64,000 nt of DNA, taken from Escherichia phage vB_EcoM-RPN187. Under the pieces are notes generated by a model. The model searched no databases, had not been told where the DNA came from, and saw nothing but the letters and a program-made list of their open reading frames with translations. The translations under genes were made by a program, and so were the position numbers. Below are positions 2,227 through 29,645 of this stretch, piece after piece (within the stretch, counting starts at the first letter, position 1; each line of letters begins with the position of its first letter). The stretch is from sequence record OL770074.2; one strand, 5' to 3'.

Positions 2227-2427
2227 TCACAAGTTACGTTTAAAAATTTCTGCTACTTCAAGAAGTTCTTCTTTAGTAGCTGTATCGGTTTGTATTTTAT
2301 ATCGAATTTCCTTAAAGCGTTCTTTAAAGGCTTCAGCTGATTCGATATCAAAAAATCTTTGGATAAGCCGGAATTCCCGGAGCACAGCTTTATCAAAAAG
2401 TTCCAAGTCCACGTTATATGTTCTCAT
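2227..2427 (-). CDS. hypothetical small protein (rIIA.1 position)
   Basis: 66 aa ORF with ATG start directly upstream of rIIA. Confidence 0.5.
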   Translation of the reverse strand: MRTYNVDLELFDKAVLREFRLIQRFFDIESAEAFKERFKEIRYKIQTDTATKEELLEVAEIFKRNL

Positions 2428-2451
2428 AATATTCTCTTCAGTAGATTCCTA

Positions 2452-2503
2452 GGGCACTATTACTAAAGACCATATAATCTATCATCTTATGTGTAATAGT
2501 GCC
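2452..2503. repeat. 11-bp perfect inverted repeat (ggcactattac / gtaatagtgcc) with 29-nt loop, rIIA.1-upstream intergenic
   Basis: read directly from sequence. Confidence 0.6.
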
Positions 2504-2519
2504 TCAGGCTATTCAGGAT

Positions 2520-3620
2520 TTACGCTGTGAAGATTTTATCCCACATCGCAACAACTGCATCTCGATTATACTTCTTCCATACTGCTTCAGCACGTTTAAC
2601 TCGAGCTTCGTATGTGTCAGTGAATTCTAATACAGCTTTTGTGTAAAGCGCAACTACTTCTTTCTTAGGAGTAGAGGAATCAATTTCTACACGCACAGTA
2701 TCTGGGTCGTATTCGAATGTCGCATGAGGATAATCCTTAAAAACTAACTGGATTACAGGGACACCTTTAGAGATAGCTTCAATAGAACTATTCTCTACTG
2801 TACCTGTGTCAGGACACGTATTAATAAGTGCTTTAGCTGTTTTAAGACGTTCCATGATTTCACTGTGTGGAGCATCAATAATAACAGGATATTTAGCTGG
2901 TGGTGCCCATTTACTAGGACAGTATCCTACACCATTTTCGCCTAGTGCTTTAATCGCTTCAAGAGCAACATCAGTACGACGCATTTTAGTGTCATAACGT
3001 TGTGCACTAATAATCAAATCAGTCGCCGGAAGAACTTCCGGTTTTTCAGTCAAACAAATAACCGGATAATCTTCGGCTTCAAACAATGGATTTGCTCGCC
3101 AATAATCATAATCAATTTTGTCAGTCAGACCTGAAGTCATATAACAATATTTGCGTTCAAATTCACGGAAGGCTTTAGTAGGAGCATAACTCTTACCACC
3201 ATTCTTATGAATTTGAATAGTCTGGTCCCAAATTTGAACAATGCCACGAGATACTGGTTCAAATGGTGTTGCCATAAAATTCTTATGAACTTTAGAGAGA
3301 CCTGCGTCTTTAATTGCCTGAACGGTTAGTTTAGTCGGTTCCATAGTAACAACAAAATCGTATTCATGGATGCCGGCTAGTTCAACAATCTTACGAGCCA
3401 TAGTATAACTCATACCTAGACTGAATTTAGTCAGATGACCAACAGGATGGTGTGTAACTTTCCAGTCACCAAACGTGTCATTATCAAAGCCGATATAATC
3501 AATATCAGCACCAATAGAAACTAAATATTTCAACACATTTAAATGTACTGCTTCAAGGCCACCTTGTACACGGTCAGGATTAAATGGGACTGCACGAGAT
3601 GGGATAAACATAACTTTCAT
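2520..3620 (-). CDS. GT-B fold glycosyltransferase; candidate DNA (hmC) sugar transferase, Aat-like
   Basis: 366 aa; C-terminal GTVENSSIEAISKGVPVIQ resembles the E..EA..G.PVI sugar-donor motif of GT-B (GT4-like) enzymes; sits between rIIA.1 and gp39. Confidence 0.65.
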   Translation of the reverse strand: MKVMFIPSRAVPFNPDRVQGGLEAVHLNVLKYLVSIGADIDYIGFDNDTFGDWKVTHHPVGHLTKFSLGMSYTMARKIVELAGIHEYDFVVTMEPTKLTVQAIKDAGLSKVHKNFMATPFEPVSRGIVQIWDQTIQIHKNGGKSYAPTKAFREFERKYCYMTSGLTDKIDYDYWRANPLFEAEDYPVICLTEKPEVLPATDLIISAQRYDTKMRRTDVALEAIKALGENGVGYCPSKWAPPAKYPVIIDAPHSEIMERLKTAKALINTCPDTGTVENSSIEAISKGVPVIQLVFKDYPHATFEYDPDTVRVEIDSSTPKKEVVALYTKAVLEFTDTYEARVKRAEAVWKKYNRDAVVAMWDKIFTA

Positions 3621-3662
3621 AATTAAGCCTTATTAAAATTAAAATGAAACTCCCGAAGGAGC

Positions 3663-5480
3663 TTAGGACATCCATTCTTTACGAAGTTCTGAATCGTCAC
3701 CCAACAACATTTCAAAGAGTTCTTTCCAATTTTCAGGAAGTTTAACTACGTCGTACACAGGGTTCTGAATCATTTCACGATATTCTGACTTTTCAAGGGA
3801 GCCTAATCCCTTGATGTATCGAATACTATGCTTAGGAAGTGTATCTTTAGCTTCTTCATACTCAGCTACAGTATAAAACCATTTTTGAGTTTTGCCAATT
3901 TGTGCAATAATTACAGGCGTTTTAACAAAGCGAATACGTCCTTGTTCAAACAATTCAGGCCAATTACTAAAGAAAGCAAGCAAAGCCGGATAAATACTTC
4001 CAAGACCATCATGATCGGCATCGGTCATAATTGCAATATTACGATAGTTCGTATTCTCTGCCTTTTCACCAAGAATAAGACCTGTGATAGCACAGATATC
4101 AAAGAGCTCTTTGTTCTTCATCATATCGGCATATGACATACCCCAGCTATTCATCACCTTACCACGTAATGGGAATCCGCCGTGTAGTTCACGGTCACGA
4201 ACATCAATGAGATAACCAATTGCCGAATCACCTTCTGTTAAAAACAATGTCGTATCTGCATCTTTACCACATTGGTTAGCTTTAATATGCTTATGAACCT
4301 TAGCTTTAGTTGCCTTTTTAGCTGCTTTAGTTTCTGCAGCCTTTTCTGCCGCCAATTTACGAGCTAATGCTGCTTCAACAATAGGCATAATCAAGGCTTC
4401 GTTTTTAAGAAGTGCCTGAGCAATTTTCTTAGCATCTAATTGGATATGATTACGAATATCACCATACGTTGACGTTAAACGTTCTTTAGTCTGAGAATCA
4501 AAACGCATGTTGCTCATGTCTCTAATAAACATCAACATTGTGAGGCATTCTTTAACACGAGCTTTAGTGACTTCAATACCCTTATATTTCTTTTTAATGC
4601 CAGGCAAAAGATGTTCGCAAATATCATCCATTACACATTCAACATGATGACCACCATTTTTAGTATGGATGTTATTCACATAAGTTAAATGACGGAAGCC
4701 ATCTGGTGATGTTGTGAATGCTATAGAGACTTTATCATTTTCTTGAATGATGTTATCTTCACCAAATTGTTTAGCAAATCGTTTAAAATTACCATCAACC
4801 TTTTTACCATTAAATGTGAACTTGATATCAGGATAAACGACTGCCAATGTTTGAAGACGGTCTAAAGTAATATCTAAATAAATTTGAGATAAATTATGCT
4901 CTTCAAATGAAGAGAAATCAGGAGTGAAGATTACTTTAGTGCCTTTACCTTTAGATTTCTTAGAAGACCATGATTTGTTTTCCATTCCGTTTGAACAGTT
5001 AACAGTGATTTCATTTTCGCCATCTGACGTGATGCCTGTAAACAACGTAGAGAAGATATTAGTTAAACTACTCCCGACGCCGTTCATACCACCAGTCTTG
5101 CGTTCAGAGTCGTCACCAAAGTTACCGCCAGCCTTTGGAATAGTCCAGGCTGCTACAGGCCCAGGAATCTGTTCACCATTTTGGTCGGTGACCATTGCTT
5201 GAGGAATACCACGTCCGTTATCTTCCACTGAGACTTGATTATTTTTAATTTGCACATCAATTTTATTTGCAAACTTAAATGATGTACGAATAGCTTCATC
5301 AACCGAGTTGTCAATAATCTCATCGATTAATTTAACCAGACCAGGAACATATTCAACTTGTTGATATTTACCAAACAAAAAACGCTCGTGGGCTTCTTTG
5401 GCCGAAGAACCAATATACATGCCACTACGTTTCTTAATATGTTCTACATCTGACAATACCTTAATTTCATTTTTAATCAT
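3663..5480 (-). CDS. 39: DNA topoisomerase II large (ATPase, GyrB-like) subunit, unsplit gp39 including the gp60 segment
   Basis: 605 aa, GHKL ATPase motifs, strong SD GAGGAG; T4 has this as two genes 39 (516 aa) + 60. Confidence 0.9.
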   Translation of the reverse strand: MIKNEIKVLSDVEHIKKRSGMYIGSSAKEAHERFLFGKYQQVEYVPGLVKLIDEIIDNSVDEAIRTSFKFANKIDVQIKNNQVSVEDNGRGIPQAMVTDQNGEQIPGPVAAWTIPKAGGNFGDDSERKTGGMNGVGSSLTNIFSTLFTGITSDGENEITVNCSNGMENKSWSSKKSKGKGTKVIFTPDFSSFEEHNLSQIYLDITLDRLQTLAVVYPDIKFTFNGKKVDGNFKRFAKQFGEDNIIQENDKVSIAFTTSPDGFRHLTYVNNIHTKNGGHHVECVMDDICEHLLPGIKKKYKGIEVTKARVKECLTMLMFIRDMSNMRFDSQTKERLTSTYGDIRNHIQLDAKKIAQALLKNEALIMPIVEAALARKLAAEKAAETKAAKKATKAKVHKHIKANQCGKDADTTLFLTEGDSAIGYLIDVRDRELHGGFPLRGKVMNSWGMSYADMMKNKELFDICAITGLILGEKAENTNYRNIAIMTDADHDGLGSIYPALLAFFSNWPELFEQGRIRFVKTPVIIAQIGKTQKWFYTVAEYEEAKDTLPKHSIRYIKGLGSLEKSEYREMIQNPVYDVVKLPENWKELFEMLLGDDSELRKEWMS

Positions 5481-14703: not shown

Positions 14704-15225
14704 TCAGTAACCATTATCTTGGCGTTCAAAGTTGTGTTGGTTTTTCAAGTAGTAAAGTTTAAAGATTTCTTCAGCCGTAAGACCCAGACCTTGGAACATA
14801 TTCAGAACAAAGTGCAGAATATCAATCATCTCGAATTTAATTTCAAGCTGGTCTTCAGGAGACAGTTCATCGATACGACGATTTCGATATTCAACATGTT
14901 GAGCTTTCCACGGCTTCCATACAGAGCTAGCGGCTTTTTCACCATTGCTCATACCACCAAGTGAAGTCAGCAGTTCACGGAATTCATCATCAATATAATC
15001 TTTCTGATTACGCAGCCAATCAACAACATCACCAGCAGTGGCCAATTCATCAGGATGTTTGTTATGTTCAGGCTTGTCATTTGCCAGACGAACCTGTAAA
15101 GATTTCTGCATATCAAGCATTACCTGCAGAGGGTCTTTATCTTCGTGAATCAGAGCATTAAAATAAGCTTCTTCTGCTTTATCAACACCAGAAATAAGTT
15201 GTGAACATTCGTTAAAGTGTGCCAT
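14704..15225 (-). CDS. 56: dCTP pyrophosphatase gp56 (MazG-like)
   Basis: 173 aa from ATG (MAHFNE) with SD AAAGGAAAA; T4 gp56 171 aa; ORF-track start is TTG. Confidence 0.8.
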   Translation of the reverse strand: MAHFNECSQLISGVDKAEEAYFNALIHEDKDPLQVMLDMQKSLQVRLANDKPEHNKHPDELATAGDVVDWLRNQKDYIDDEFRELLTSLGGMSNGEKAASSVWKPWKAQHVEYRNRRIDELSPEDQLEIKFEMIDILHFVLNMFQGLGLTAEEIFKLYYLKNQHNFERQDNGY

Positions 15226-21488: not shown

Positions 21489-21830
21489 TTAAAAGAATTT
21501 AAATTTTTTCTTGGCCCGTTCATTAAAAGCTTGTTGTACTTGCATTGTAACACATTTTTCAACATGTGGTGCAAGTTCTGCTTTTCTGTCCTGGTCAAGA
21601 ACTGCAAAGTCCATTACGATTTTACCATCAACCCAGTCTAGTTTTGTAATATAGACTATATGATGAGAACCATCTTCAAGTGTAATCAGAATCTCTTGAA
21701 TGACATTTTCCATTGCTGAACGGATAATTTTAAGAGATTCATTAAACACTCGTTCTTTGCGAATGTCTTCCCCTTCCGAAGAAGGGGATTCATCAACGAT
21801 TTCTAGATTTAAATCATCGAGATTATTCAT
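21489..21830 (-). CDS. 40: gp40-like protein (assigned by synteny), start uncertain
   Basis: between gp41 and uvsX as in T4; internal ATG (MNNLDD) chosen to limit overlap with uvsX. Confidence 0.45.
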   Translation of the reverse strand: MNNLDDLNLEIVDESPSSEGEDIRKERVFNESLKIIRSAMENVIQEILITLEDGSHHIVYITKLDWVDGKIVMDFAVLDQDRKAELAPHVEKCVTMQVQQAFNERAKKKFKFF

Positions 21831-22995
21831 CGAAATCTTCCATTTCGTCAAGGTCATTTTCTATATCTGCTGCAGACGGAGCATCAGAAGTTTTAACCGG
21901 AACTTTAGTTGTTGCTTTGCAATTAATAAGGTCGTTAACAGCGTCATCAACTTCTTTAATAGAAGAGATAGCACCTAGTTTATATTTAGTTTCAATTGCA
22001 TCTCGGAAAGGTTTGTGTTTAAACAAAGGTCCCCAGAATTCTACACAATCAGTAGCTTTAGCACGCCATGATTTTTCTTCACGAATCATTTCGCCAGTTT
22101 CTTCGTCAAGGAATTCACGAGCATACCACCCGGCTTTAGGCTTAACTACAAAACCAATTTCAGTTGCCATTTCCAACAAGCCACTGAATGGGTCGATACC
22201 ACCATCAAAATTAACCGTGATTGGGAAAGTAGATTTTTCTTTAACGGTGCGAGATTTTTCTGCTTTCAGTGTGAAATCGTATCCGGTCAATTCTGTACCT
22301 TCTTTAACCTGACGTTTAGAGATAAAGAATACGGTGTTAGCAGAGTAAAGAATACCTGTACCACCGCCCATAATCTCTTTAGGATACAATCCGCCGATTT
22401 CCATTGCTGTATGGTTGATTGCAACACACGGAATATCTTTAATAGTCAGATACGGAGTCACAATGCGGAATAGAGATTTAAGTGCCTTAGCACGAGACAT
22501 ATCACCTACGACTTTCTCGTTCAATGCATCTTCAGTTTCTTTCTTAGATGCAGTATTACCGATTGAATCGATAAAGATAATAACTTTATCACCGCGTTCA
22601 ATAGCGTCAAGCTGATTAGTCATATCAACTTTAAGCTGTTCGACAGATTGAATCGGAGTATGAACTACACGGTCTAAATCAACACCCATTGAACGAAAAT
22701 AAGATTCCGAAGCACCAAATTCTGAATCATAGAACAAACAAATTGCATCTTTATATTTCTTCATATATGCTGCAACCATGGTCAGACCAAACAACGTTTT
22801 AAAGTGTTTAGAAGGAGCAGCAAAAATAGTTAAGCCTGATTGCAACCCGGCATTCAGTGCACCACCTAATGCAATATTCAACATCGGAATACGAGTAGGG
22901 ACTTCATCGCGATTATTAAACAACTTAGACTTAGTCAAGTCTGCAGTCATTTTAGAAGTAGAAGCTTTAATCAGACGAGATTTTAAATCAGACAT
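21823..22995 (-). CDS. uvsX: UvsX recombinase (RecA-like)
   Basis: 390 aa; N-terminus MSDLKSRLIKASTSK matches recalled T4 UvsX. Confidence 0.9.
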   Translation of the reverse strand: MSDLKSRLIKASTSKMTADLTKSKLFNNRDEVPTRIPMLNIALGGALNAGLQSGLTIFAAPSKHFKTLFGLTMVAAYMKKYKDAICLFYDSEFGASESYFRSMGVDLDRVVHTPIQSVEQLKVDMTNQLDAIERGDKVIIFIDSIGNTASKKETEDALNEKVVGDMSRAKALKSLFRIVTPYLTIKDIPCVAINHTAMEIGGLYPKEIMGGGTGILYSANTVFFISKRQVKEGTELTGYDFTLKAEKSRTVKEKSTFPITVNFDGGIDPFSGLLEMATEIGFVVKPKAGWYAREFLDEETGEMIREEKSWRAKATDCVEFWGPLFKHKPFRDAIETKYKLGAISSIKEVDDAVNDLINCKATTKVPVKTSDAPSAADIENDLDEMEDFDE

Positions 22996-23094: not shown

Positions 23095-23643
23095 TTAACG
23101 AGCCCATTTGATAATTTCTGTAATCAAATTATTACGTTCGCTTGCATTAAATCCTATAACTTTGTTAGCACTATCATGATTAAGTAATTGATACGTTTGG
23201 ATTTTGTTATGAATTGCAAACTCTTCAAAATATGAAATGACTGTATTAAAACCGAATGAAGACAAAGTAATAAGGTCGTCTTCAAAACTTTCAGTCATTT
23301 CGTTACGTGTTAAAATAATTGTGAACACATCATGGTTTTGGCAAAGACGAACATAATCCTGTTCATAAACGTCAAGAACCGAGTCCACATCTTGTCGAAT
23401 ACGTCCATAAACCCAGTTACTAATATATCCACGGTCTAACAGATAAATCTTAGTAGGGTCTAAATAATTCAACATCGTTTCGAAACAGCCAACTTCATTT
23501 CGAGACTTAACATCAAAACGTCCATCAACTGTTCGTTTAGGGAAATCAATCTTTACATATCTTTCACTAATTTCCATTATGTCATTAATGAAAGTTGTTT
23601 TACCAGCATTATCCGGGCCATCTACTAAAATAATTTTAGCCAT
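23095..23643 (-). CDS. thymidylate kinase-like P-loop nucleotide kinase
   Basis: 182 aa; N-terminal ILVDGPDNAGKTT P-loop and LLDRGYIS (TMK DRY-like) motif; SD GAGGAA. Confidence 0.55.
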   Translation of the reverse strand: MAKIILVDGPDNAGKTTFINDIMEISERYVKIDFPKRTVDGRFDVKSRNEVGCFETMLNYLDPTKIYLLDRGYISNWVYGRIRQDVDSVLDVYEQDYVRLCQNHDVFTIILTRNEMTESFEDDLITLSSFGFNTVISYFEEFAIHNKIQTYQLLNHDSANKVIGFNASERNNLITEIIKWAR

Positions 23644-23644
23644 T

Positions 23645-24544
23645 TTATTCCTCGATTACGACATCTTCATATTTAGGTATATTATACGGCGAAGAAATTA
23701 AAGCATTAAAGTAGATGAACTCGCCAAGACCTGGATGGAATACTTCTTCAGGATTTTCGAAGTATTGAATCTTCGGACGTCCTTTAAGAATTTGATAGTA
23801 CTCAGTTTTAGTTGGTTTAAAAATTCGAATCAGCGCTTCTTCAGGATACTTATTTCTGTCGAAGCTATTATTTGGATCGGTTATATAAAGCGGTTGACCT
23901 AATTGAATTGCACATTCAACCACTTGTTCAAAACGATAACACGGGTCACTAATTCGAAATGGATGAAAAATACCATCTAGATGAATAGGAGCCAAATCAC
24001 CTACAAGACGCTGCATGATGGAAGGACGTATAACTTTCTGGGTTACGATAATCTTATTACCATCTGCACCTGCGTTAACCAGCACTTCTTTTTGACGTTC
24101 ATTCAACACAGTAGTTTGAAGTGAACGATTAACCGACAACATGTCGGTTTTTAAGAATTCGTCAATGTAAAAACGTGGTTTATTAGGGTCTGCAGTGATA
24201 TTGAAATTGAATTCTACATCAAAAGCGCCGTCATATCCAGTGATATCTGTGATTAGAAAATCACAATCATAATAAGCAATTAATGAATCAACCACAAATT
24301 CATTTTCAGACCAGAAATATTTACGAGTGTTATACGCGTTATCTTTATACCATAATGGAACAAACTTAAATTCTGGGAAAAGACGTTCGCATTCTTTAAT
24401 ATCAGATGCATTACGTGGATATGTAATAACATCACCTGGATTAGCACGGTGCAAATGAAGTTGGAAGTTGCCATCCTTAAGGATAGCATACTGTCCAGTT
24501 TCATAAGACCGCATACTCAAGATAGGTACGCGGAAAATAGCCAT
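23645..24544 (-). CDS. hypothetical protein at the T4 beta-glucosyltransferase locus
   Basis: 299 aa, ATG overlapping gp42 stop (TAATG); no motif recognised. Confidence 0.5.
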   Translation of the reverse strand: MAIFRVPILSMRSYETGQYAILKDGNFQLHLHRANPGDVITYPRNASDIKECERLFPEFKFVPLWYKDNAYNTRKYFWSENEFVVDSLIAYYDCDFLITDITGYDGAFDVEFNFNITADPNKPRFYIDEFLKTDMLSVNRSLQTTVLNERQKEVLVNAGADGNKIIVTQKVIRPSIMQRLVGDLAPIHLDGIFHPFRISDPCYRFEQVVECAIQLGQPLYITDPNNSFDRNKYPEEALIRIFKPTKTEYYQILKGRPKIQYFENPEEVFHPGLGEFIYFNALISSPYNIPKYEDVVIEE

Positions 24545-25260
24545 TAGTCAAGAAATCCTTTAACATAATCAAAATCACGTTCAAACACATGGGCACTTAC
24601 CATGGTATGAGTATAATCACCAACTTCTACACCACATTCGTTAGCGATATAATGAAGTAATTTTCCTTGGAGATAAAAATCCAACTGCATAACAACAGCA
24701 CAGTTCTGAGAACGCATATGACAGTGGGTATAAAGCTTACCATCACGAATATAATAAGTCACTGAGTCGGTACATGGATATTCAAGTGTTTCGTCTGAAT
24801 CAAGCAAAGCCTGATCAGAACTTTCTAGAATTTGGAACACAACTCTTCGAGAGTTAGGTTTTTCTTTAAGTTCTTTTAGAAGAGTTGGTAACTGGGCCGC
24901 AATGCGAGGACCATAGAAAGTGTTGAAGTTCGCAGGCAAAGCATCTGATTTTGGTTTAGAAATAAATTTAGCGACGTTAGGATATGCCTTAAATGCTTCT
25001 TCTGCATCAGTACCACCAGAAATCATAAATTTCCAGAAATCTTCAGCATATTCATAAGAGATGCGATTAATACGTGGGTCGGTCATTTTGAATGATGAAG
25101 GGGTATCAACAACTACTGTCATAGACCCAATTTCATTACAACGTCCAATACGAGAATCAGTTACGAATTCCGGGTTTTCTAAAATTTCACGATTGACTGC
25201 TTTAAATGCGGATTGAAAATCTGCGGCTTTAATATATTTCATTGTGTTATGTTTTCCCAT
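24544..25260 (-). CDS. 42: dCMP hydroxymethylase gp42 (thymidylate-synthase fold)
   Basis: 238 aa; CTDSVTYYIRD...MRSQN resembles recalled T4 gp42 active-site region; SD GAGGT. Confidence 0.7.
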   Translation of the reverse strand: MGKHNTMKYIKAADFQSAFKAVNREILENPEFVTDSRIGRCNEIGSMTVVVDTPSSFKMTDPRINRISYEYAEDFWKFMISGGTDAEEAFKAYPNVAKFISKPKSDALPANFNTFYGPRIAAQLPTLLKELKEKPNSRRVVFQILESSDQALLDSDETLEYPCTDSVTYYIRDGKLYTHCHMRSQNCAVVMQLDFYLQGKLLHYIANECGVEVGDYTHTMVSAHVFERDFDYVKGFLD

Positions 25261-25278
25261 GTTTACCTCAATACAGTT

Positions 25279-25302
25279 ATTATATACTCAATTCATAAAG
25301 CT
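25279..25302 (-). promoter_or_regulatory. possible middle-type promoter (MotA-box-like AGCTTTA 11 nt upstream of -10 TATAAT) before gene 42
   Basis: box deviates from TGCTT consensus at first position. Confidence 0.3.
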
Positions 25303-25393
25303 TATTTGAATTTCTTAGCGATGTTGATATAACGTAGAGCTTCGGCATCGATACTTCCAAGGACGCTATGAAGGAACGCGTCGACATAGTATT

Positions 25394-25543
25394 CTAGTTG
25401 AACAGGTTCTCTTTAATCACTTTAGCCGCTTTAGTTTCAAACAGGCCCATAAGGGCCTTTTTAAGAATTTGTTCGTTGTTGTTAATTTTAATAGTCAAAA
25501 TCTCTTCGTTAAGTTGGTGATTAAAAGTTTTTCTAGAAATCAT
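25394..25543 (-). CDS. possible small ORF (49 aa) coupled to upstream gene by ATGA overlap
   Basis: own translation MISRKTFNHQL...; contains a GGCCC/GGGCC hairpin, so may be non-coding. Confidence 0.25.
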   Translation of the reverse strand: MISRKTFNHQLNEEILTIKINNNEQILKKALMGLFETKAAKVIKENLFN

Positions 25544-26709
25544 TCTGGGTACCTCAAAGCGTCATCAGAGTTAGTTATATCAATAATAGATATAGAGTTT
25601 TCCGATAACCCATTTTTAGATAACTGACGTTTATAATATCTTTCACAATATGTACACGTCGTCCCGCAGATTTCATTAGCACAATCGAAATCTGGATGTT
25701 TGAACCACCTTTTTTCTAAAAAGCCATCTAACAAAGAGGTTTCAATATTTACCGTATGTGAAAACTCAGTCTCATTTTCAAGAGTGAAAATGGTCTCTAA
25801 AGGCTTCCACAATTCCAACAAATTACCTTCAAATTTTTCGGAAGCATAAGCTTCAAGAACTTTCAAAATGTAGTCTGTGCTACCTGTACGTCCTGAAACT
25901 TTGAATTGAGTGATACCAATATCATTATAAAGTTTCAAATCTTGAGGACGAACAAAACGAGTTCTCAACCAGTTAAATGGGTCTGTATCACGAGCTTTAA
26001 TACAGTGTTGCATTGGATATCCATTTAAGGATTTGGCATCATCTACTGTAACGTCGGTGCTATGGAAAATATAGCAAGAGTCACGATAACTACAATGTGT
26101 TGTATACCCTTTACCAGCATTAGAACAGAACTCATTTACAAGAACTTCAAATATTATATTGTTCTTATTGCAAAACTCTGCTGCACGCTTCAGGAAAGAA
26201 ACTGAACGGTTCTTATGAATTCCACAACAGACCTTTTTGATATTATACTGGTCATGCAAGTATTTGATTTGAGTTACAGCATCGACATGTAGAATTGTTG
26301 AAACTTCAATCTCAATGTCTTTATTGACTTCACGAACAATTTCCATAACAACAGGGTTAGCGATAGTAATACGCCATACGCCTATTGACCAAAGATACTG
26401 AACATAATCCTGAATAGCTTTCTTCTTCCACTCAACTAGTTCTCTTTTTGAACCAGGATTTATCGTGTTGAGTGTATAGTTAAAGCAAATACCTAATTCG
26501 TTACAACGTTTAACGTAATCTTCTAACATCTTTTTGTCAACGTCAGGAAGCCTAAAATCAGGTCTGGCTGCTACAAAAGCCATTTCTCTTGTAGAGCCGT
26601 ATACTTCGTTTATCAAGCTATTAGGATAAGTTTTATTGAGCTCTACGATTTTATCAAGAAGAGCTAAATCAAAATTCGTTCCGATTTTAAAGGTATTCAT
26701 TTTTTGCAT
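25540..26709 (-). CDS. hypothetical protein with weak resemblance to peptidase U32 (PrtC/RlhA/UbiU-type) family
   Basis: 389 aa; Cys-rich EFCSNAGKGYTTHCS and FKVSGRTGS reminiscent of U32 signature/LKIEGR motif; assignment tentative. Confidence 0.45.
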   Translation of the reverse strand: MQKMNTFKIGTNFDLALLDKIVELNKTYPNSLINEVYGSTREMAFVAARPDFRLPDVDKKMLEDYVKRCNELGICFNYTLNTINPGSKRELVEWKKKAIQDYVQYLWSIGVWRITIANPVVMEIVREVNKDIEIEVSTILHVDAVTQIKYLHDQYNIKKVCCGIHKNRSVSFLKRAAEFCNKNNIIFEVLVNEFCSNAGKGYTTHCSYRDSCYIFHSTDVTVDDAKSLNGYPMQHCIKARDTDPFNWLRTRFVRPQDLKLYNDIGITQFKVSGRTGSTDYILKVLEAYASEKFEGNLLELWKPLETIFTLENETEFSHTVNIETSLLDGFLEKRWFKHPDFDCANEICGTTCTYCERYYKRQLSKNGLSENSISIIDITNSDDALRYPE

Positions 26710-26756
26710 CTCGCCGTTAATTGATGCGATGGTTTTTGCAGGTCTTACTTAAATTA

Positions 26757-27158
26757 TTATAGATTCGGTTTATATGATTTAAATGTTTCGAATTCGCCTT
26801 TATTCATAAGAGCTTTGAATTCGTCAGGACGCATAGCTTTGTCGTCGATAATCCAATCATATACTGGTTTATGTGTTAGCAAATTATGGTACTTCAATCC
26901 AATGTTTGCCAAGTTCTGAATCAGACTTGGGAGAATGTCAATTGCTATACGACCCGGACCGACTGACTTCATACCGCGAGCAGTGTAAAGCGTTATGGTA
27001 TGCCCTGCATCATACAGGGCATTAATGGCAGACACCATTTCGACGTCTGGTTTGAAGTTCACGTAATCACGATTGTTATTCCACTCTGTTATACAATCAT
27101 CGACATCAAAACAAAGATTAAGCATGTTTTCTACACGGTGCATTAGATTCGTTCCCAT
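26757..27158 (-). CDS. small HAD-superfamily-like phosphatase (start uncertain)
   Basis: LCFDVDDCIT resembles HAD motif I; alternative starts at M6 (TAATG coupling) or M12. Confidence 0.45.
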   Translation of the reverse strand: MGTNLMHRVENMLNLCFDVDDCITEWNNNRDYVNFKPDVEMVSAINALYDAGHTITLYTARGMKSVGPGRIAIDILPSLIQNLANIGLKYHNLLTHKPVYDWIIDDKAMRPDEFKALMNKGEFETFKSYKPNL

Positions 27159-28828
27159 TGATGAGTGATATCGCCACCGATTGGACGATAGGAAACACCA
27201 GTTTCTTTATCAGTTAGTACCCATTTACCAGGATTTTTTGTAATCAGAGTAGCCGTTACAGGTTCTGCTACGTCATAACTAATAGAGCCGTCCTGAAGTA
27301 CACGGCCCATGTTACGTAATTGCTTAGTCAGAAGTTCCATACCTTTATAATATGCGGCTACCGCTTTAAGTGGATTATTCTTGAAATAACCACCTAATGC
27401 AATCCAGATAATTGCCACTGCCAAATGATGATACTCGTTAAACGAACTCATCTTTCCATATTTGTAAACTAATGGATTGATGTTAATAGTCACATTACAA
27501 GTTGTTTCATCAATAGTAAACTGTCCCCAGGTCGGATTAGCGTTGAATTCATCATACCCTGAAACAGCATAAAGCACTTTAGCTTCGTCATACAATTTTG
27601 GCCCGTAAATCTTGGTTTCACCAAAATATCCACGAGGGTCAATAAACTTGACTTCACCATTATCAGTAATCATAGTATTACTGAAGTTCGGGTCACCATG
27701 AATAACAGAGTACTGTCCCTGAGAACGGTTATGATAACGAATAAGGTGTTCTAAAGCTTGTCTCAACATTGGCTTCAGACGTCCAATCTTAGTGTAGTTC
27801 ACATGTGTGATTTTACCAAATGAATCAATCAATGGTTGAATACTTTCACAACGATCAATAACTTTCGTATAGAATTCTTTAGTGAAATCACGACGAACAG
27901 TTTCAGGACTTACAAAATAAGTGTCTGTGCTGAATTTCAGTGCATCTAAAATTGCATCAACAATTTGTGGACGAGCAAGACTTGATTTGGATTTAATATA
28001 TTCAAATGCCGGCTTACCTTTAATGCGTTCCATTTCAAAGTTATTTTCATTAACAGAAACTAACTGAGGAACTGAATCTGATTTCACTTTAAGATACCAT
28101 GAAATCTCATCTTTCTGAAGAGCTCGGCCCTGTTCGGTTAATGCGAATTTAGTTACAGTTTCTTCACCAATTTCAACTGCGTTAAAACTACGATTAAGTT
28201 CACGAACTTCATGAGCTTTTTCAAGTTTAGGCATATCACCTAAATCAATTAGATTCATAAGCTCTGATTTATTGAATGCGCTGCCGTAAAGGAATTCTAC
28301 GAAATCACGTCCTTTGCAGTATTCATGAATTTCCTCATCAGTAGAACCCATATAGAATTCCCAGTCTTTGAACTGATAAATTCCTACAACATTACCACCT
28401 GTTGAACCTACGTTAGTGATATTTTCACCGTCGAAATTATATCGACATTCGTCGCCCTTAACATAGATTGCGTTAACATTCCAAGACCACGAACCAAAAT
28501 CAGGAATAATATCACACCAGTTAACAATTACATTATGGCCGTCTAAATCTTTGTGCAATTTAGCAAGAGCATAAGCAGAACCATATGCTTCATCAACTGT
28601 ACGAATAGTCACATTGAACCCTTCTTGCTCACAATAAGCTCGAACAGTTTCAGCAAATTTTGAATGAACTACTACAATAATTTCATCTGCGCCAAGGTCA
28701 GAATAAATTGTATACAAATTGCTCAGAATAGTGTCTTGTTTATAGTTAACAAGCACCTTAGGAATATGATGCGTTATTGGATACAAACGAGTTGCCAGTC
28801 CAGCACCAAGAATAACAGCTTTTTTCAT
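27143..28828 (-). CDS. bifunctional sugar-phosphate nucleotidyltransferase (N-terminal) / APH-like kinase (C-terminal)
   Basis: 561 aa; N-terminal ILGAGLATRL (GxGxR NTase motif); C-terminal HGDPNFSNTMI and FIDPRGYFG (Brenner/APH kinase motifs); SD GAGGA. Confidence 0.7.
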   Translation of the reverse strand: MKKAVILGAGLATRLYPITHHIPKVLVNYKQDTILSNLYTIYSDLGADEIIVVVHSKFAETVRAYCEQEGFNVTIRTVDEAYGSAYALAKLHKDLDGHNVIVNWCDIIPDFGSWSWNVNAIYVKGDECRYNFDGENITNVGSTGGNVVGIYQFKDWEFYMGSTDEEIHEYCKGRDFVEFLYGSAFNKSELMNLIDLGDMPKLEKAHEVRELNRSFNAVEIGEETVTKFALTEQGRALQKDEISWYLKVKSDSVPQLVSVNENNFEMERIKGKPAFEYIKSKSSLARPQIVDAILDALKFSTDTYFVSPETVRRDFTKEFYTKVIDRCESIQPLIDSFGKITHVNYTKIGRLKPMLRQALEHLIRYHNRSQGQYSVIHGDPNFSNTMITDNGEVKFIDPRGYFGETKIYGPKLYDEAKVLYAVSGYDEFNANPTWGQFTIDETTCNVTININPLVYKYGKMSSFNEYHHLAVAIIWIALGGYFKNNPLKAVAAYYKGMELLTKQLRNMGRVLQDGSISYDVAEPVTATLITKNPGKWVLTDKETGVSYRPIGGDITHQWERI

Positions 28829-28869
28829 GTTGTGGTCCTCATTGGTAAGTAGGAGTATTGTACACTATT

Positions 28870-29013
28870 CTAGTTAAAGCATTCATACTTTGCTTGTAGT
28901 CCAATCATAATCCATCCGATTATAAGAGTCGGAATCATTACTGGAGCCGTTAAGCTCCAGTAGATAGTCATGACAAGCATCAATAGTAAAAGTCCTATTG
29001 TTATTGCTTTCAT
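28870..29013 (-). CDS. possible small two-TM membrane protein (47 aa), coupled to the SIS gene stop
   Basis: own translation MKAITIGLLLLMLVMTIYW...; ATG overlaps upstream TGA. Confidence 0.4.
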   Translation of the reverse strand: MKAITIGLLLLMLVMTIYWSLTAPVMIPTLIIGWIMIGLQAKYECFN

Positions 29014-29645
29014 TGTTCGCCTCGTAACATGGCACCTAGTGCACCGCCAGGGTGGAACTTAAGGAAGTCATTAGAGGTAAATCCACGTTCAGACGAAAGG
29101 TTGATAGCAAACGTATCGATAAGCGCTAACAACAATGTAGTGGACATGGTCGGAGCCAGAGAATTCTCATCAACCTCTACTGCGATGCCTGTACAGAACG
29201 TATAATCAAAAAGAGCTTCGTATTCTTGTGGAATGTCCGGGTTACAATGCAACAGAATCTGTTTGACGTTCGGACGAATCATTTTAAGATGCTTAGCCAC
29301 GCCTATCATTTCTTCAGTTTTACCAGAACGACTAATATGAATCAACACATCATTAGGCGCAATGAATCCTGCATCACCGTGAGAATAATGTCCAGTGTTC
29401 AAGTACATACTCGGGATACCGAGTGAAGCAAATGTCTCAGAAGCTTTAGTTGCAATATTAGCATTCTTACCAACACCTGTAATAATTACTCGGCTTTCAT
29501 AATTACTAAGTCCAGGACGTCGAAGAGTTTCTAGAATAGCATTATAACGAGCAGGGTTTTGACTAATTACTTTGGCCATAGCGGCCAAAGAAGAAGCTTG
29601 TTTTATGATTGCGTCAATAGCGATAGTAATAGGAGTAGTTTTCAT
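29010..29645 (-). CDS. SIS-domain sugar-phosphate isomerase (KdsD/GutQ-like arabinose-5-phosphate isomerase)
   Basis: 211 aa; ITGVGKNANIA and ISRSGKTEE SIS motifs; SD GAGAG. Confidence 0.7.
   Translation of the reverse strand: MKTTPITIAIDAIIKQASSLAAMAKVISQNPARYNAILETLRRPGLSNYESRVIITGVGKNANIATKASETFASLGIPSMYLNTGHYSHGDAGFIAPNDVLIHISRSGKTEEMIGVAKHLKMIRPNVKQILLHCNPDIPQEYEALFDYTFCTGIAVEVDENSLAPTMSTTLLLALIDTFAINLSSERGFTSNDFLKFHPGGALGAMLRGEQ

What the first reader, a model, noticed from the sequence alone, without database searches (positions are those of the whole stretch)
2520..3620. GT-B glycosyltransferase between rIIA.1 and gp39 is the candidate DNA sugar transferase
The 366-aa protein has the C-terminal E..EA..G.PVI donor-binding signature of GT-B enzymes, while no T4-type alpha-gt (expected after gene 47) or beta-gt (expected after uvsX) is present. 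This is the likely hmC glycosyl/arabinosyl transferase partnering the synthesis island 23 kb away.
Basis: partly seen in the sequence, partly recalled or inferred. Interest (0 to 1): 0.75.

Follow-up and report, generated by a model that had tools for sequence, protein, structure and literature searches.

The report
Known RB69-type phage DNA arabinosyltransferase
This gene is the already published and crystallised glycosyltransferase of RB69-like phages (RB69 ORF003c) that helps coat the phage's cytosines with arabinose; it most likely adds the second sugar, not the first, and the modified base is 5-hydroxycytosine, not hydroxymethylcytosine.

Summary
A 366-aa ORF lies at 2520..3620 (minus strand) between rIIA.1 and the fused gp60+39, with the conserved ENSSIEAISKGVPVI motif. 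T4-type alpha-gt and beta-gt are absent, and a sugar-nucleotide/ThyA-homolog island lies 20-26 kb away.

The gene is not new. It is the ortholog of RB69 ORF003c (98.9% identical, same genome coordinates), proposed as the arabinosyltransferase in 2018. A 99%-identical protein from phage HY126 has crystal structures, apo and with UDP (PDB 9iqz, 9ir0). My AlphaFold model matches them at TM 0.95-0.97, and its other neighbours are GT-B, mostly GT4-type, enzymes.

The interpretation needs three corrections.
1. The acceptor chemistry is arabinosyl-5-hydroxycytosine, not hmC. The window's ThyA homolog is 99% identical to the RB69 enzyme shown to make 5-hydroxy-dCMP.
2. It is not the only transferase candidate. 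A 299-aa ORF inside the island (23645..24544) is the published candidate for the first arabinosyltransferase.
3. Phyletic pattern, synteny and the one readable in vitro result for homologs (DLP3 gp76+gp77) indicate that this enzyme extends the sugar chain, adding beta-Araf to O3 of the first arabinose.

Verdict: already known, low interest.

The parts
2520..3620 (-). 366-aa GT-B glycosyltransferase. It is the ortholog of RB69 ORF003c (gp3) and of the phage HY126 glycosyltransferase (PDB 9iqz, 9ir0), and is the proposed second (beta) DNA arabinosyltransferase.
   Evidence: ORF. 98.9% identical to RB69 ORF003c at the same coordinates. 362/366 identical to the 9iqz chain. PHROG 8302 matched full length, E=4e-222. 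AF2 pLDDT 91.7 and TM 0.95-0.97 to 9ir0/9iqz.
3621..3664 (-). Short intergenic region after the gp60+39 stop codon. It holds a CTCC-TTCG-GGAG tetraloop hairpin (3647..3664) and an AAGG ribosome-binding site 7 nt before the ATG. No separate promoter was found, so the gene is probably co-transcribed with the topoisomerase gene (inference).
   Evidence: Sequence. Terminator-like and promoter scan. Fold.
2428..2519 (-). Downstream intergenic region with a strong hairpin: a perfect 11-bp stem, GGCACTATTAC...GTAATAGTGCC. Its role is unknown.
   Evidence: MFE -28.6 kcal/mol for 92 nt. Sequence.
23645..24544 (-). Island 299-aa protein, the ortholog of RB69 gp46:47, DLP3 gp79 and Thanatos TH1_063. It is the published candidate for the first (base-proximal, alpha) arabinosyltransferase.
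24544..25260 (-). Thymidylate-synthase homolog, the 5-hydroxy-dCMP synthase (RB69 gp48 ortholog). It makes the hydroxyl group that receives the first arabinose.
   Evidence: Pfam Thymidylat_synt. 99.2% identical to RB69 ORF048c, 70% to Maestro 081 and 25% to T4 gp42. The RB69 enzyme's activity is published.
23095..23643 (-). 182-aa thymidylate-kinase-like nucleotide kinase (RB69 gp45 ortholog).
   Evidence: 97% identical to RB69 ORF045c. 43% to Maestro 079. Published fold assignment.
25540..26709 (-). U32-peptidase-like protein (RB69 gp50 ortholog). Its role in the pathway is unclear.
   Evidence: Pfam Peptidase_U32. 99% identical to RB69 ORF050c. The Thanatos counterpart, TH1_065, is also U32-like.
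26757..27158 (-). HAD-type phosphatase (RB69 gp51, HY126 AfhF-like). Proposed to convert Araf-1,5-bisphosphate to Araf-1-phosphate.
   Evidence: 99% identical to RB69 ORF051c. 60% to Maestro 082. Function taken from the literature.
27143..28828 (-). Bifunctional nucleotidyltransferase plus kinase (RB69 gp52:53, HY126 AfhE-like). Proposed to make UDP-arabinofuranose.
   Evidence: Pfam NTP_transferase plus weak kinase hits. 99% identical to RB69 ORF052c and 053c. Function taken from the literature.
29010..29645 (-). SIS-domain D-arabinose-5-phosphate isomerase (RB69 gp55 ortholog).
   Evidence: Pfam SIS. 99% identical to RB69 ORF055c. Literature.
14707..15225 (-). gp56 dCTPase. It removes canonical dCTP from the nucleotide pool.
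   Evidence: 72% identical to T4 gp56 and 97% to RB69 gp56.

Best explanation
The ORF encodes a soluble GT-B glycosyltransferase that binds a UDP-sugar in its C-terminal domain. It belongs to the cytosine-arabinosylation pathway of RB69-like (Mosigvirus) phages.

Proposed pathway. The island makes 5-hydroxy-dCMP with the ThyA homolog, and this replaces dC in phage DNA. The island also makes UDP-D-arabinofuranose from ribulose-5-phosphate, using the isomerase, the kinase/uridylyltransferase and the phosphatase. A first transferase, most likely the island 299-aa protein, links alpha-Araf to the 5-hydroxyl of the base. The target enzyme then adds a second Araf in beta linkage to O3 of the first. 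The product is beta-D-Araf-(1->3)-alpha-D-Araf-5-hydroxy-dC in DNA, which shields the genome from restriction and CRISPR nucleases.

Basis of each step:
- Shown: the fold, and UDP binding by a 99%-identical protein.
- Shown in the literature for RB69: the base and the sugar structure.
- Shown only for the 40-43%-identical DLP3 paralogs acting together: chain-elongating activity on DNA.
- Inferred: that this enzyme performs the second step.
For: Fold and donor:
- The model has pLDDT 91.7 and TM 0.95-0.97 to PDB 9ir0 ('phage HY126 glycosyltransferase with UDP') and 9iqz.

Identity:
- 98.9% identical to RB69 ORF003c at the same coordinates.

Link to the pathway:
- All island genes are 97-100% identical to RB69's.
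- In Acinetobacter phages Maestro and DLP3, two paralogs of the target lie directly downstream of ThyA-homolog, island GT and kinase in one gene string.

Second step rather than first:
- The island GT is in 348 phage records across many genera. The target family is in 211: Mosigvirus with one copy, Acinetobacter phages with two.
- Thanatos has the island but no family member. Its 378-aa neighbour is U32-like. It is reported as mono-arabinosylated.
- Mosigviruses RB69, NP, Bas46 and Bas47 are reported with up to two arabinoses. DLP3, with two copies, has three.
- Purified DLP3 gp76+gp77, which are 40% and 43% identical to the target, add a third Araf from UDP-Araf to RB69 DNA. No individual GT acted on 5hoC DNA.
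- Two 2026 papers propose the same assignment.
Against: - No direct activity data for this protein were available to me. He et al. 2026 and Mahler et al. 2025, which probably contain them, could not be read.
- I could not confirm that the island 299-aa protein is a glycosyltransferase. It has no Pfam, PDB or profile-profile signal, and its Thanatos ortholog was reported as a UDP-xylose pyrophosphorylase.
- DLP3 gp76 and gp77 were active only together, and on the third step, not the second.
- The copy-number correlation rests on a handful of chemically characterised phages.
- The closest folds are retaining GT4 enzymes, yet the proposed product is beta and the first linkage is alpha. The stereochemical course is therefore unresolved.
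Confidence: 0.7

Rival explanations
1. It is the first, base-proximal transferase. It attaches arabinose directly to the 5-hydroxyl of cytosine in DNA, and the island 299-aa protein does something else.
For: - This was the original 2018 proposal for RB69 ORF003c.
- It is the protein that was crystallised with UDP, in work on 'hydroxylation and arabinofuranosylation'.
- The island protein has no sequence-detectable GT signature.
- The island protein's Thanatos ortholog was reported as a sugar-nucleotide pyrophosphorylase.
Against: - About 140 phage records, including Thanatos, Serratia LC53 and Dhakavirus JS98, carry the island without any homolog of this protein. Thanatos and LC53 are reported to have arabinosylated cytosine, so another enzyme must perform the first transfer there.
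- DLP3 homologs showed no activity on 5hoC DNA but did act on already arabinosylated DNA.
Confidence: 0.18
2. It is an hmC glucosyl- or arabinosyltransferase equivalent to T4 alpha-gt or beta-gt, acting on 5-hydroxymethylcytosine.
For: - T4-like genome context with alpha-gt and beta-gt missing.
- GT-B fold shared with T4 alpha-gt.
- The 2018 paper described ara-hmC.
Against: - MS/MS and NMR show a 5-hydroxycytosine ether linkage, not a hydroxymethyl group.
- The window's ThyA homolog is 99% identical to RB69 gp48, a 5-hydroxy-dCMP synthase, and 25% identical to T4 gp42.
- There is no sequence similarity to T4 alpha-gt or beta-gt.
Confidence: 0.03
3. It glycosylates something other than DNA, such as a virion protein or a host envelope component. 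Its link to the arabinose island would then be coincidental.
For: - In Mosigviruses it lies 20 kb from the island.
- A 39%-identical metagenomic relative sits among tail and structural genes with no island nearby.
- The closest folds act on lipids, small molecules and polysaccharides.
Against: - The paralogs are embedded in the DNA-modification gene string in Acinetobacter phages.
- DLP3 gp76+gp77 modify DNA in vitro.
- Within Mosigvirus it co-occurs almost one-to-one with the island: 155 against 153 records at >=95% identity.
Confidence: 0.03

Closest known systems
RB69 ORF003c (gp3) and the phage HY126 glycosyltransferase (PDB 9iqz, 9ir0); PHROG 8302
   Same: Essentially the same protein. 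It is 98.9% identical to RB69 ORF003c and 362/366 identical to the HY126 chain, with the same genome coordinates, neighbours and island.
   Different: Four conservative substitutions only: T56N, T191N, V231A and T327I relative to RB69.
Acinetobacter phage DLP3 gp77 and gp76 (Maestro 078 and 077)
   Same: Same family, at 43% and 40% identity over the full length, with all invariant residues shared. They belong to the same 5-hydroxycytosine arabinosylation pathway. Together they add Araf from UDP-Araf to arabinosylated DNA in vitro.
   Different: There are two paralogs instead of one. They lie inside the island rather than 20 kb away. The activity shown is the third arabinose (beta-1,5), not the second.
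Bacterial GT4-type GT-B glycosyltransferases (PimA, BshA, MshA, WaaG, tetrahydrobiopterin glucosyltransferase, sucrose-phosphate synthase)
   Different: Identity is at most 15%. It stays below all Pfam thresholds. It has E-x4-E instead of the canonical E-x7-E. The acceptor is a sugar on DNA and the donor is a furanose. The proposed product is beta-linked, whereas GT4 enzymes retain configuration.
T4 alpha-glucosyltransferase (GT72) and beta-glucosyltransferase (GT63)
   Different: There is no sequence similarity. The genome position differs. The sugar is arabinofuranose, not glucose, and the base is 5-hydroxycytosine, not 5-hydroxymethylcytosine. It probably acts on a sugar rather than on the base. 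In function it is closer to the T2/T6 beta-alpha-glucosyltransferase that makes gentiobiosyl-hmC; that comparison comes from my own knowledge and was not tested.

Membership tests
GT-B fold glycosyltransferases | Two Rossmann-like beta/alpha/beta domains separated by a cleft | tested here: met
GT-B fold glycosyltransferases | Binds a nucleotide-sugar donor | tested here: met
   PDB 9ir0 is a UDP complex of a 99%-identical protein. I saw only the entry title, not the contacts.
CAZy GT4 / Pfam Glycos_transf_1 and Glyco_transf_4 | Sequence match above the curated family threshold | tested here: not met
   No Pfam hit for the ORF even at E<=10. Among 13 family members there are only sub-threshold hits, in 1-2 distant members: GT4-conflict 0.0028, Glyco_trans_1_4 0.013, Glycos_transf_1 0.048. 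A profile search of PDB sequences finds only 9iqz.
CAZy GT4 / Pfam Glycos_transf_1 and Glyco_transf_4 | Canonical E-x7-E motif in the C-terminal domain | tested here: not met
   The motif is E276-NSSI-E281. The residue eight positions before E281 is G273.
CAZy GT4 / Pfam Glycos_transf_1 and Glyco_transf_4 | Retention of anomeric configuration | not testable with these tools
   The product of the proposed step is beta-Araf. The anomeric configuration of the natural UDP-D-Araf donor is not known to me.
T4 alpha-gt / beta-gt DNA glucosyltransferases | Sequence homology to T4 alpha-gt or beta-gt | tested here: not met
   tblastn of both T4 proteins against the window gives no hit at E<=1.
T4 alpha-gt / beta-gt DNA glucosyltransferases | Acceptor is 5-hydroxymethylcytosine made by a gp42-type dCMP hydroxymethylase | tested here: not met
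   The window's ThyA homolog is 25% identical to T4 gp42 and 99.2% identical to RB69 gp48, a published 5-hydroxy-dCMP synthase. RB69 DNA contains 5hoC.
RB69 ORF003c / DLP3 gp76-77 family (PHROG 8302; phage DNA arabinosyltransferase 2) | Full-length sequence membership | tested here: met
   PHROG 8302 at E=4e-222 over residues 1-366 of 366. 98.9% identical to RB69 ORF003c. 40-43% identical to DLP3 gp76 and gp77.
RB69 ORF003c / DLP3 gp76-77 family (PHROG 8302; phage DNA arabinosyltransferase 2) | Co-occurrence with a 5-hydroxy-dCMP synthase and a UDP-arabinose island | tested here: met
   The complete island is present at 23095..29645. In Acinetobacter phages the family members are contiguous with the island.
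RB69 ORF003c / DLP3 gp76-77 family (PHROG 8302; phage DNA arabinosyltransferase 2) | Arabinosyl transfer from UDP-Araf to arabinosylated DNA | not testable with these tools
   Published only for DLP3 gp76+gp77 acting together. The papers likely to hold data on this protein are not in the library.

The most novel reading that the evidence does not exclude
The enzyme is mechanistically atypical. It would be a soluble, UDP-arabinofuranose-dependent GT-B enzyme on a retaining-type GT4-like scaffold that forms a beta-(1->3) furanosyl bond on a sugar already attached to DNA. The island GT has the same kind of fold neighbours yet its proposed product is alpha. If both use one donor, one of the two must break the GT4 stereochemical rule. 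Alternatively, the target may work only as a complex with a partner GT, as DLP3 gp76 and gp77 do. The published work raises this question and leaves it open; it is not a discovery of this scan.
Probability: 0.3. Interest if true: 0.45.

Novelty: already known. Interest (0 to 1): 0.15.

Why it matters
Arabinosylated cytosine protects RB69-like phages from restriction enzymes, some CRISPR-Cas systems and DNA glycosylases, and the number of arabinoses appears to tune that protection. Knowing which gene adds which sugar matters for phage engineering, for sequencing and cloning such DNA, and for predicting the host range of therapeutic phages. For this window, the practical value is a corrected annotation:
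- The gene should be labelled DNA arabinosyltransferase (probably the second step), RB69 ORF003c family.
- The ThyA homolog should be labelled 5-hydroxy-dCMP synthase, not dCMP hydroxymethylase.
- ORF 23645..24544 should be flagged as the other transferase candidate.

None of this is a new discovery.

Tried and rejected
- Pfam scan of the ORF at E<=10 found nothing. Sequence-based family assignment therefore fails; only PHROG 8302 ('unknown function') matches.
- The first AlphaFold run used 6 sequences and gave a poor model (pLDDT 60). I replaced it with a 13-sequence run.
- Searches of 5.8 billion proteins (word-indexed) and of 1.84 billion representatives (profile) found only 5 and 11 family clusters, none bacterial. 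An origin from a specific bacterial GT could not be traced.
- I tried to show independently that the island 299-aa protein is a GT. BLASTP against the target, a PDB sequence search, Pfam, a profile search of the PDB and hhalign against the target family (probability 0.2%) were all negative.
- I suspected that Thanatos TH1_065 (378 aa, in the slot where Acinetobacter phages carry the paralogs) was a hidden family member. It is U32-peptidase-like and does not match the family profile, so I rejected this.
- He et al. 2026 and Mahler et al. 2025 could not be retrieved by DOI or PubMed ID. Searches for the PDB codes and for the Afh and Aat gene names gave no further sources.
- A promoter scan gave fewer sigma-70-like sites than the shuffled controls (8 against 12.5 expected), so I make no promoter claim.

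Full report
**Observation.** The ORF is exactly as described. It runs 2520..3620 on the minus strand, has an ATG start and encodes 366 aa. It lies between rIIA.1 (2227..2427) and the topoisomerase gene (3663..5480). An AAGG ribosome-binding site lies 7 nt upstream, and the N-terminus aligns with all homologs. The quoted motif is ENSSIEAISKGVPVI at residues 276-290. It is the most conserved block of the family: E281, A282 and G286 are invariant across 13 sequences down to 20% identity. The gene is under strong purifying selection, with 27 synonymous against 4 non-synonymous codon differences from RB69 (pN/pS about 0.04). T4 alpha-gt and beta-gt have no tblastn match in the window at E<=1. Their usual neighbours gp47, gp55 and uvsX match strongly, and only about 1 kb separates gp47 from gp55.

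**Identity.** The window is the start of an RB69-like Mosigvirus genome, about 98% identical to several such phages over the first 12 kb. In RB69 itself the gene at 2520..3620 is RB69ORF003c, and the window protein is 98.9% identical to it. Thomas et al. 2018 (PMC6024577) proposed ORF003c as the RB69 arabinosyltransferase from HMM, HHpred and Phyre2 evidence for a GT-B fold. A protein identical at 362 of 366 positions, from phage HY126, has crystal structures in the PDB. These are 9iqz (apo) and 9ir0 ('phage HY126 glycosyltransferase with UDP'), released July 2025. The finding is therefore a correct rediscovery of a known gene.

**The island, and a second transferase candidate.** After uvsX (21823..22995) the window encodes the following, all on the minus strand:
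- a thymidylate-kinase-like protein (23095..23643);
- a 299-aa protein with no Pfam hit (23645..24544);
- a thymidylate-synthase homolog (24544..25260);
- a U32-like protein (25540..26709);
- a small HAD-like protein (26757..27158);
- a nucleotidyltransferase/kinase fusion (27143..28828);
- a SIS-domain isomerase (29010..29645);
- then DNA polymerase.

**The base is not hmC.** MS/MS and NMR show that RB69 DNA carries beta-D-Araf-(1->3)-alpha-D-Araf linked by an ether to C5 of 5-hydroxy-2'-deoxycytidine. The RB69 ThyA homolog gp48 makes 5-hydroxy-dCMP. The earlier ara-hmC assignment is described as erroneous. The window's ThyA homolog is 99.2% identical to RB69 gp48, 70% identical to the Acinetobacter phage Maestro enzyme, and only 25% identical to T4 gp42.

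**Which step?** I tested this comparatively.
- Synteny: in Acinetobacter phages Maestro and DLP3, two paralogs of the target lie immediately downstream of ThyA-homolog, island GT and kinase in the same gene string. They are 43% and 40% identical to the target and 57% identical to each other. The family therefore belongs to this pathway.
- Distribution: tblastn finds the island GT in 348 phage records, spanning Mosigvirus, Dhakavirus, and Klebsiella, Edwardsiella, Enterobacter, Yersinia, Pectobacterium, Serratia, Proteus, Providencia, Shewanella and Acinetobacter phages. The target family is in only 211: about 155 Mosigviruses with one copy, 55 Acinetobacter phages with two, and one unresolved record.
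- Thanatos: a family HMM finds no member in the island regions of Thanatos, Serratia LC53, Proteus Pm5461 or JS98, and only the one copy in the window. The 378-aa Thanatos protein in the equivalent slot is U32-like.
- Chemistry: reported chain length tracks copy number. Thanatos (none) is mono-arabinosylated. RB69, NP, Bas46 and Bas47 (one copy) carry up to two arabinoses. DLP3 (two copies) carries three.
- Biochemistry: purified DLP3 gp76 plus gp77 add a third Araf from UDP-Araf to RB69 DNA, whereas no single GT acted on 5hoC DNA.

Together these favour a chain-elongating role: the target adds the second, beta-(1->3)-linked arabinofuranose. My confidence is about 0.7.

**Caveats.**
- I could not read He et al. 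2026, the source of the HY126 structures, or Mahler et al. 2025, the 'Aat' paper. The latter is cited for a viable Bas46 Aat deletion with altered defence sensitivity. Neither could be retrieved. They may already settle the step.
- I could not verify that the island 299-aa protein is a GT.
- The Thanatos ortholog of the island protein, TH1_063, was reported as a UDP-xylose pyrophosphorylase.
- Both candidate transferases have retaining-type GT4 neighbours, yet the two linkages are alpha and beta. At least one enzyme must depart from the GT4 rule, or the two use different donors. This remains open.

**Verdict.** The fold, the role in DNA sugar transfer and the partnership with the island are right. 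The acceptor base, the claim to be the sole candidate, and the likely step are wrong or incomplete. Novelty: already known. The gene was proposed in 2018, crystallised in 2025 and assigned to step 2 in 2026. Interest is low. The residual open question is the exact step and the stereochemical mechanism of this GT4-like furanosyltransferase.

Noticed in passing
window 25305-25543 (-): The ortholog of RB69 ORF049c (79 aa) has a 2-nt insertion relative to RB69 (AAAGAGAACCTG against AAAGAACCTG), which gives a stop after 49 aa. It could be a real frameshift in this phage, or another error in the old RB69 record like those in ORF046/047 and ORF052/053.
   Followed up: partly
window 2428-2519: The intergenic region between the GT stop codon and rIIA.1 folds into a strong hairpin with a perfect 11-bp stem, GGCACTATTAC...GTAATAGTGCC (MFE -28.6 kcal/mol for 92 nt). 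Its function is unknown.
   Followed up: partly
window 3647-3664 (-): A CTCC-TTCG-GGAG tetraloop hairpin lies directly after the gp60+39 stop codon, 27 nt before the GT start. It was flagged as terminator-like.
   Followed up: no
window 3663-5480 (-): The topoisomerase large subunit is the fused 60+39 form (605 aa; the C-terminal part of T4 gp60 maps to 3666-4004). There is no gene-60 bypass element. The GT occupies the slot where T4 has gene 60, 60.1 and mobA.
   Followed up: partly
window 23645-24544 (-): The island 299-aa protein (RB69 gp46:47 ortholog) is intact here, as one ORF. It occurs in 348 phage records yet has no detectable sequence or profile similarity to any Pfam family, any PDB chain or the target GT family. 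Its Thanatos ortholog was reported as a UDP-xylose pyrophosphorylase, which conflicts with the GT assignment.
   Followed up: partly
L006 10001-11140 (metagenomic contig SRR34261890_53613): A 39%-identical member of the GT family lies among tail and structural genes (Peptidase_M23, T4 gp13-like, DPBB_1, DUF4815, terminase) of a different phage. No ThyA or arabinose island lies within 10 kb. This hints at other uses of the family.
   Followed up: no
MK962757.1 (Shigella phage JK45) 2428-4165: The region homologous to window 2428-3662 spans 1738 bp instead of 1235, in two aligned pieces. This suggests an insertion of about 500 bp in or beside the GT gene.
   Followed up: no
phage collection: One record whose organism name begins 'Tegunavirus' matched the GT at under 60% identity, although the Yersinia TG1-type records did not. 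It is absent from the DNA-level hits. I did not identify it.
   Followed up: no
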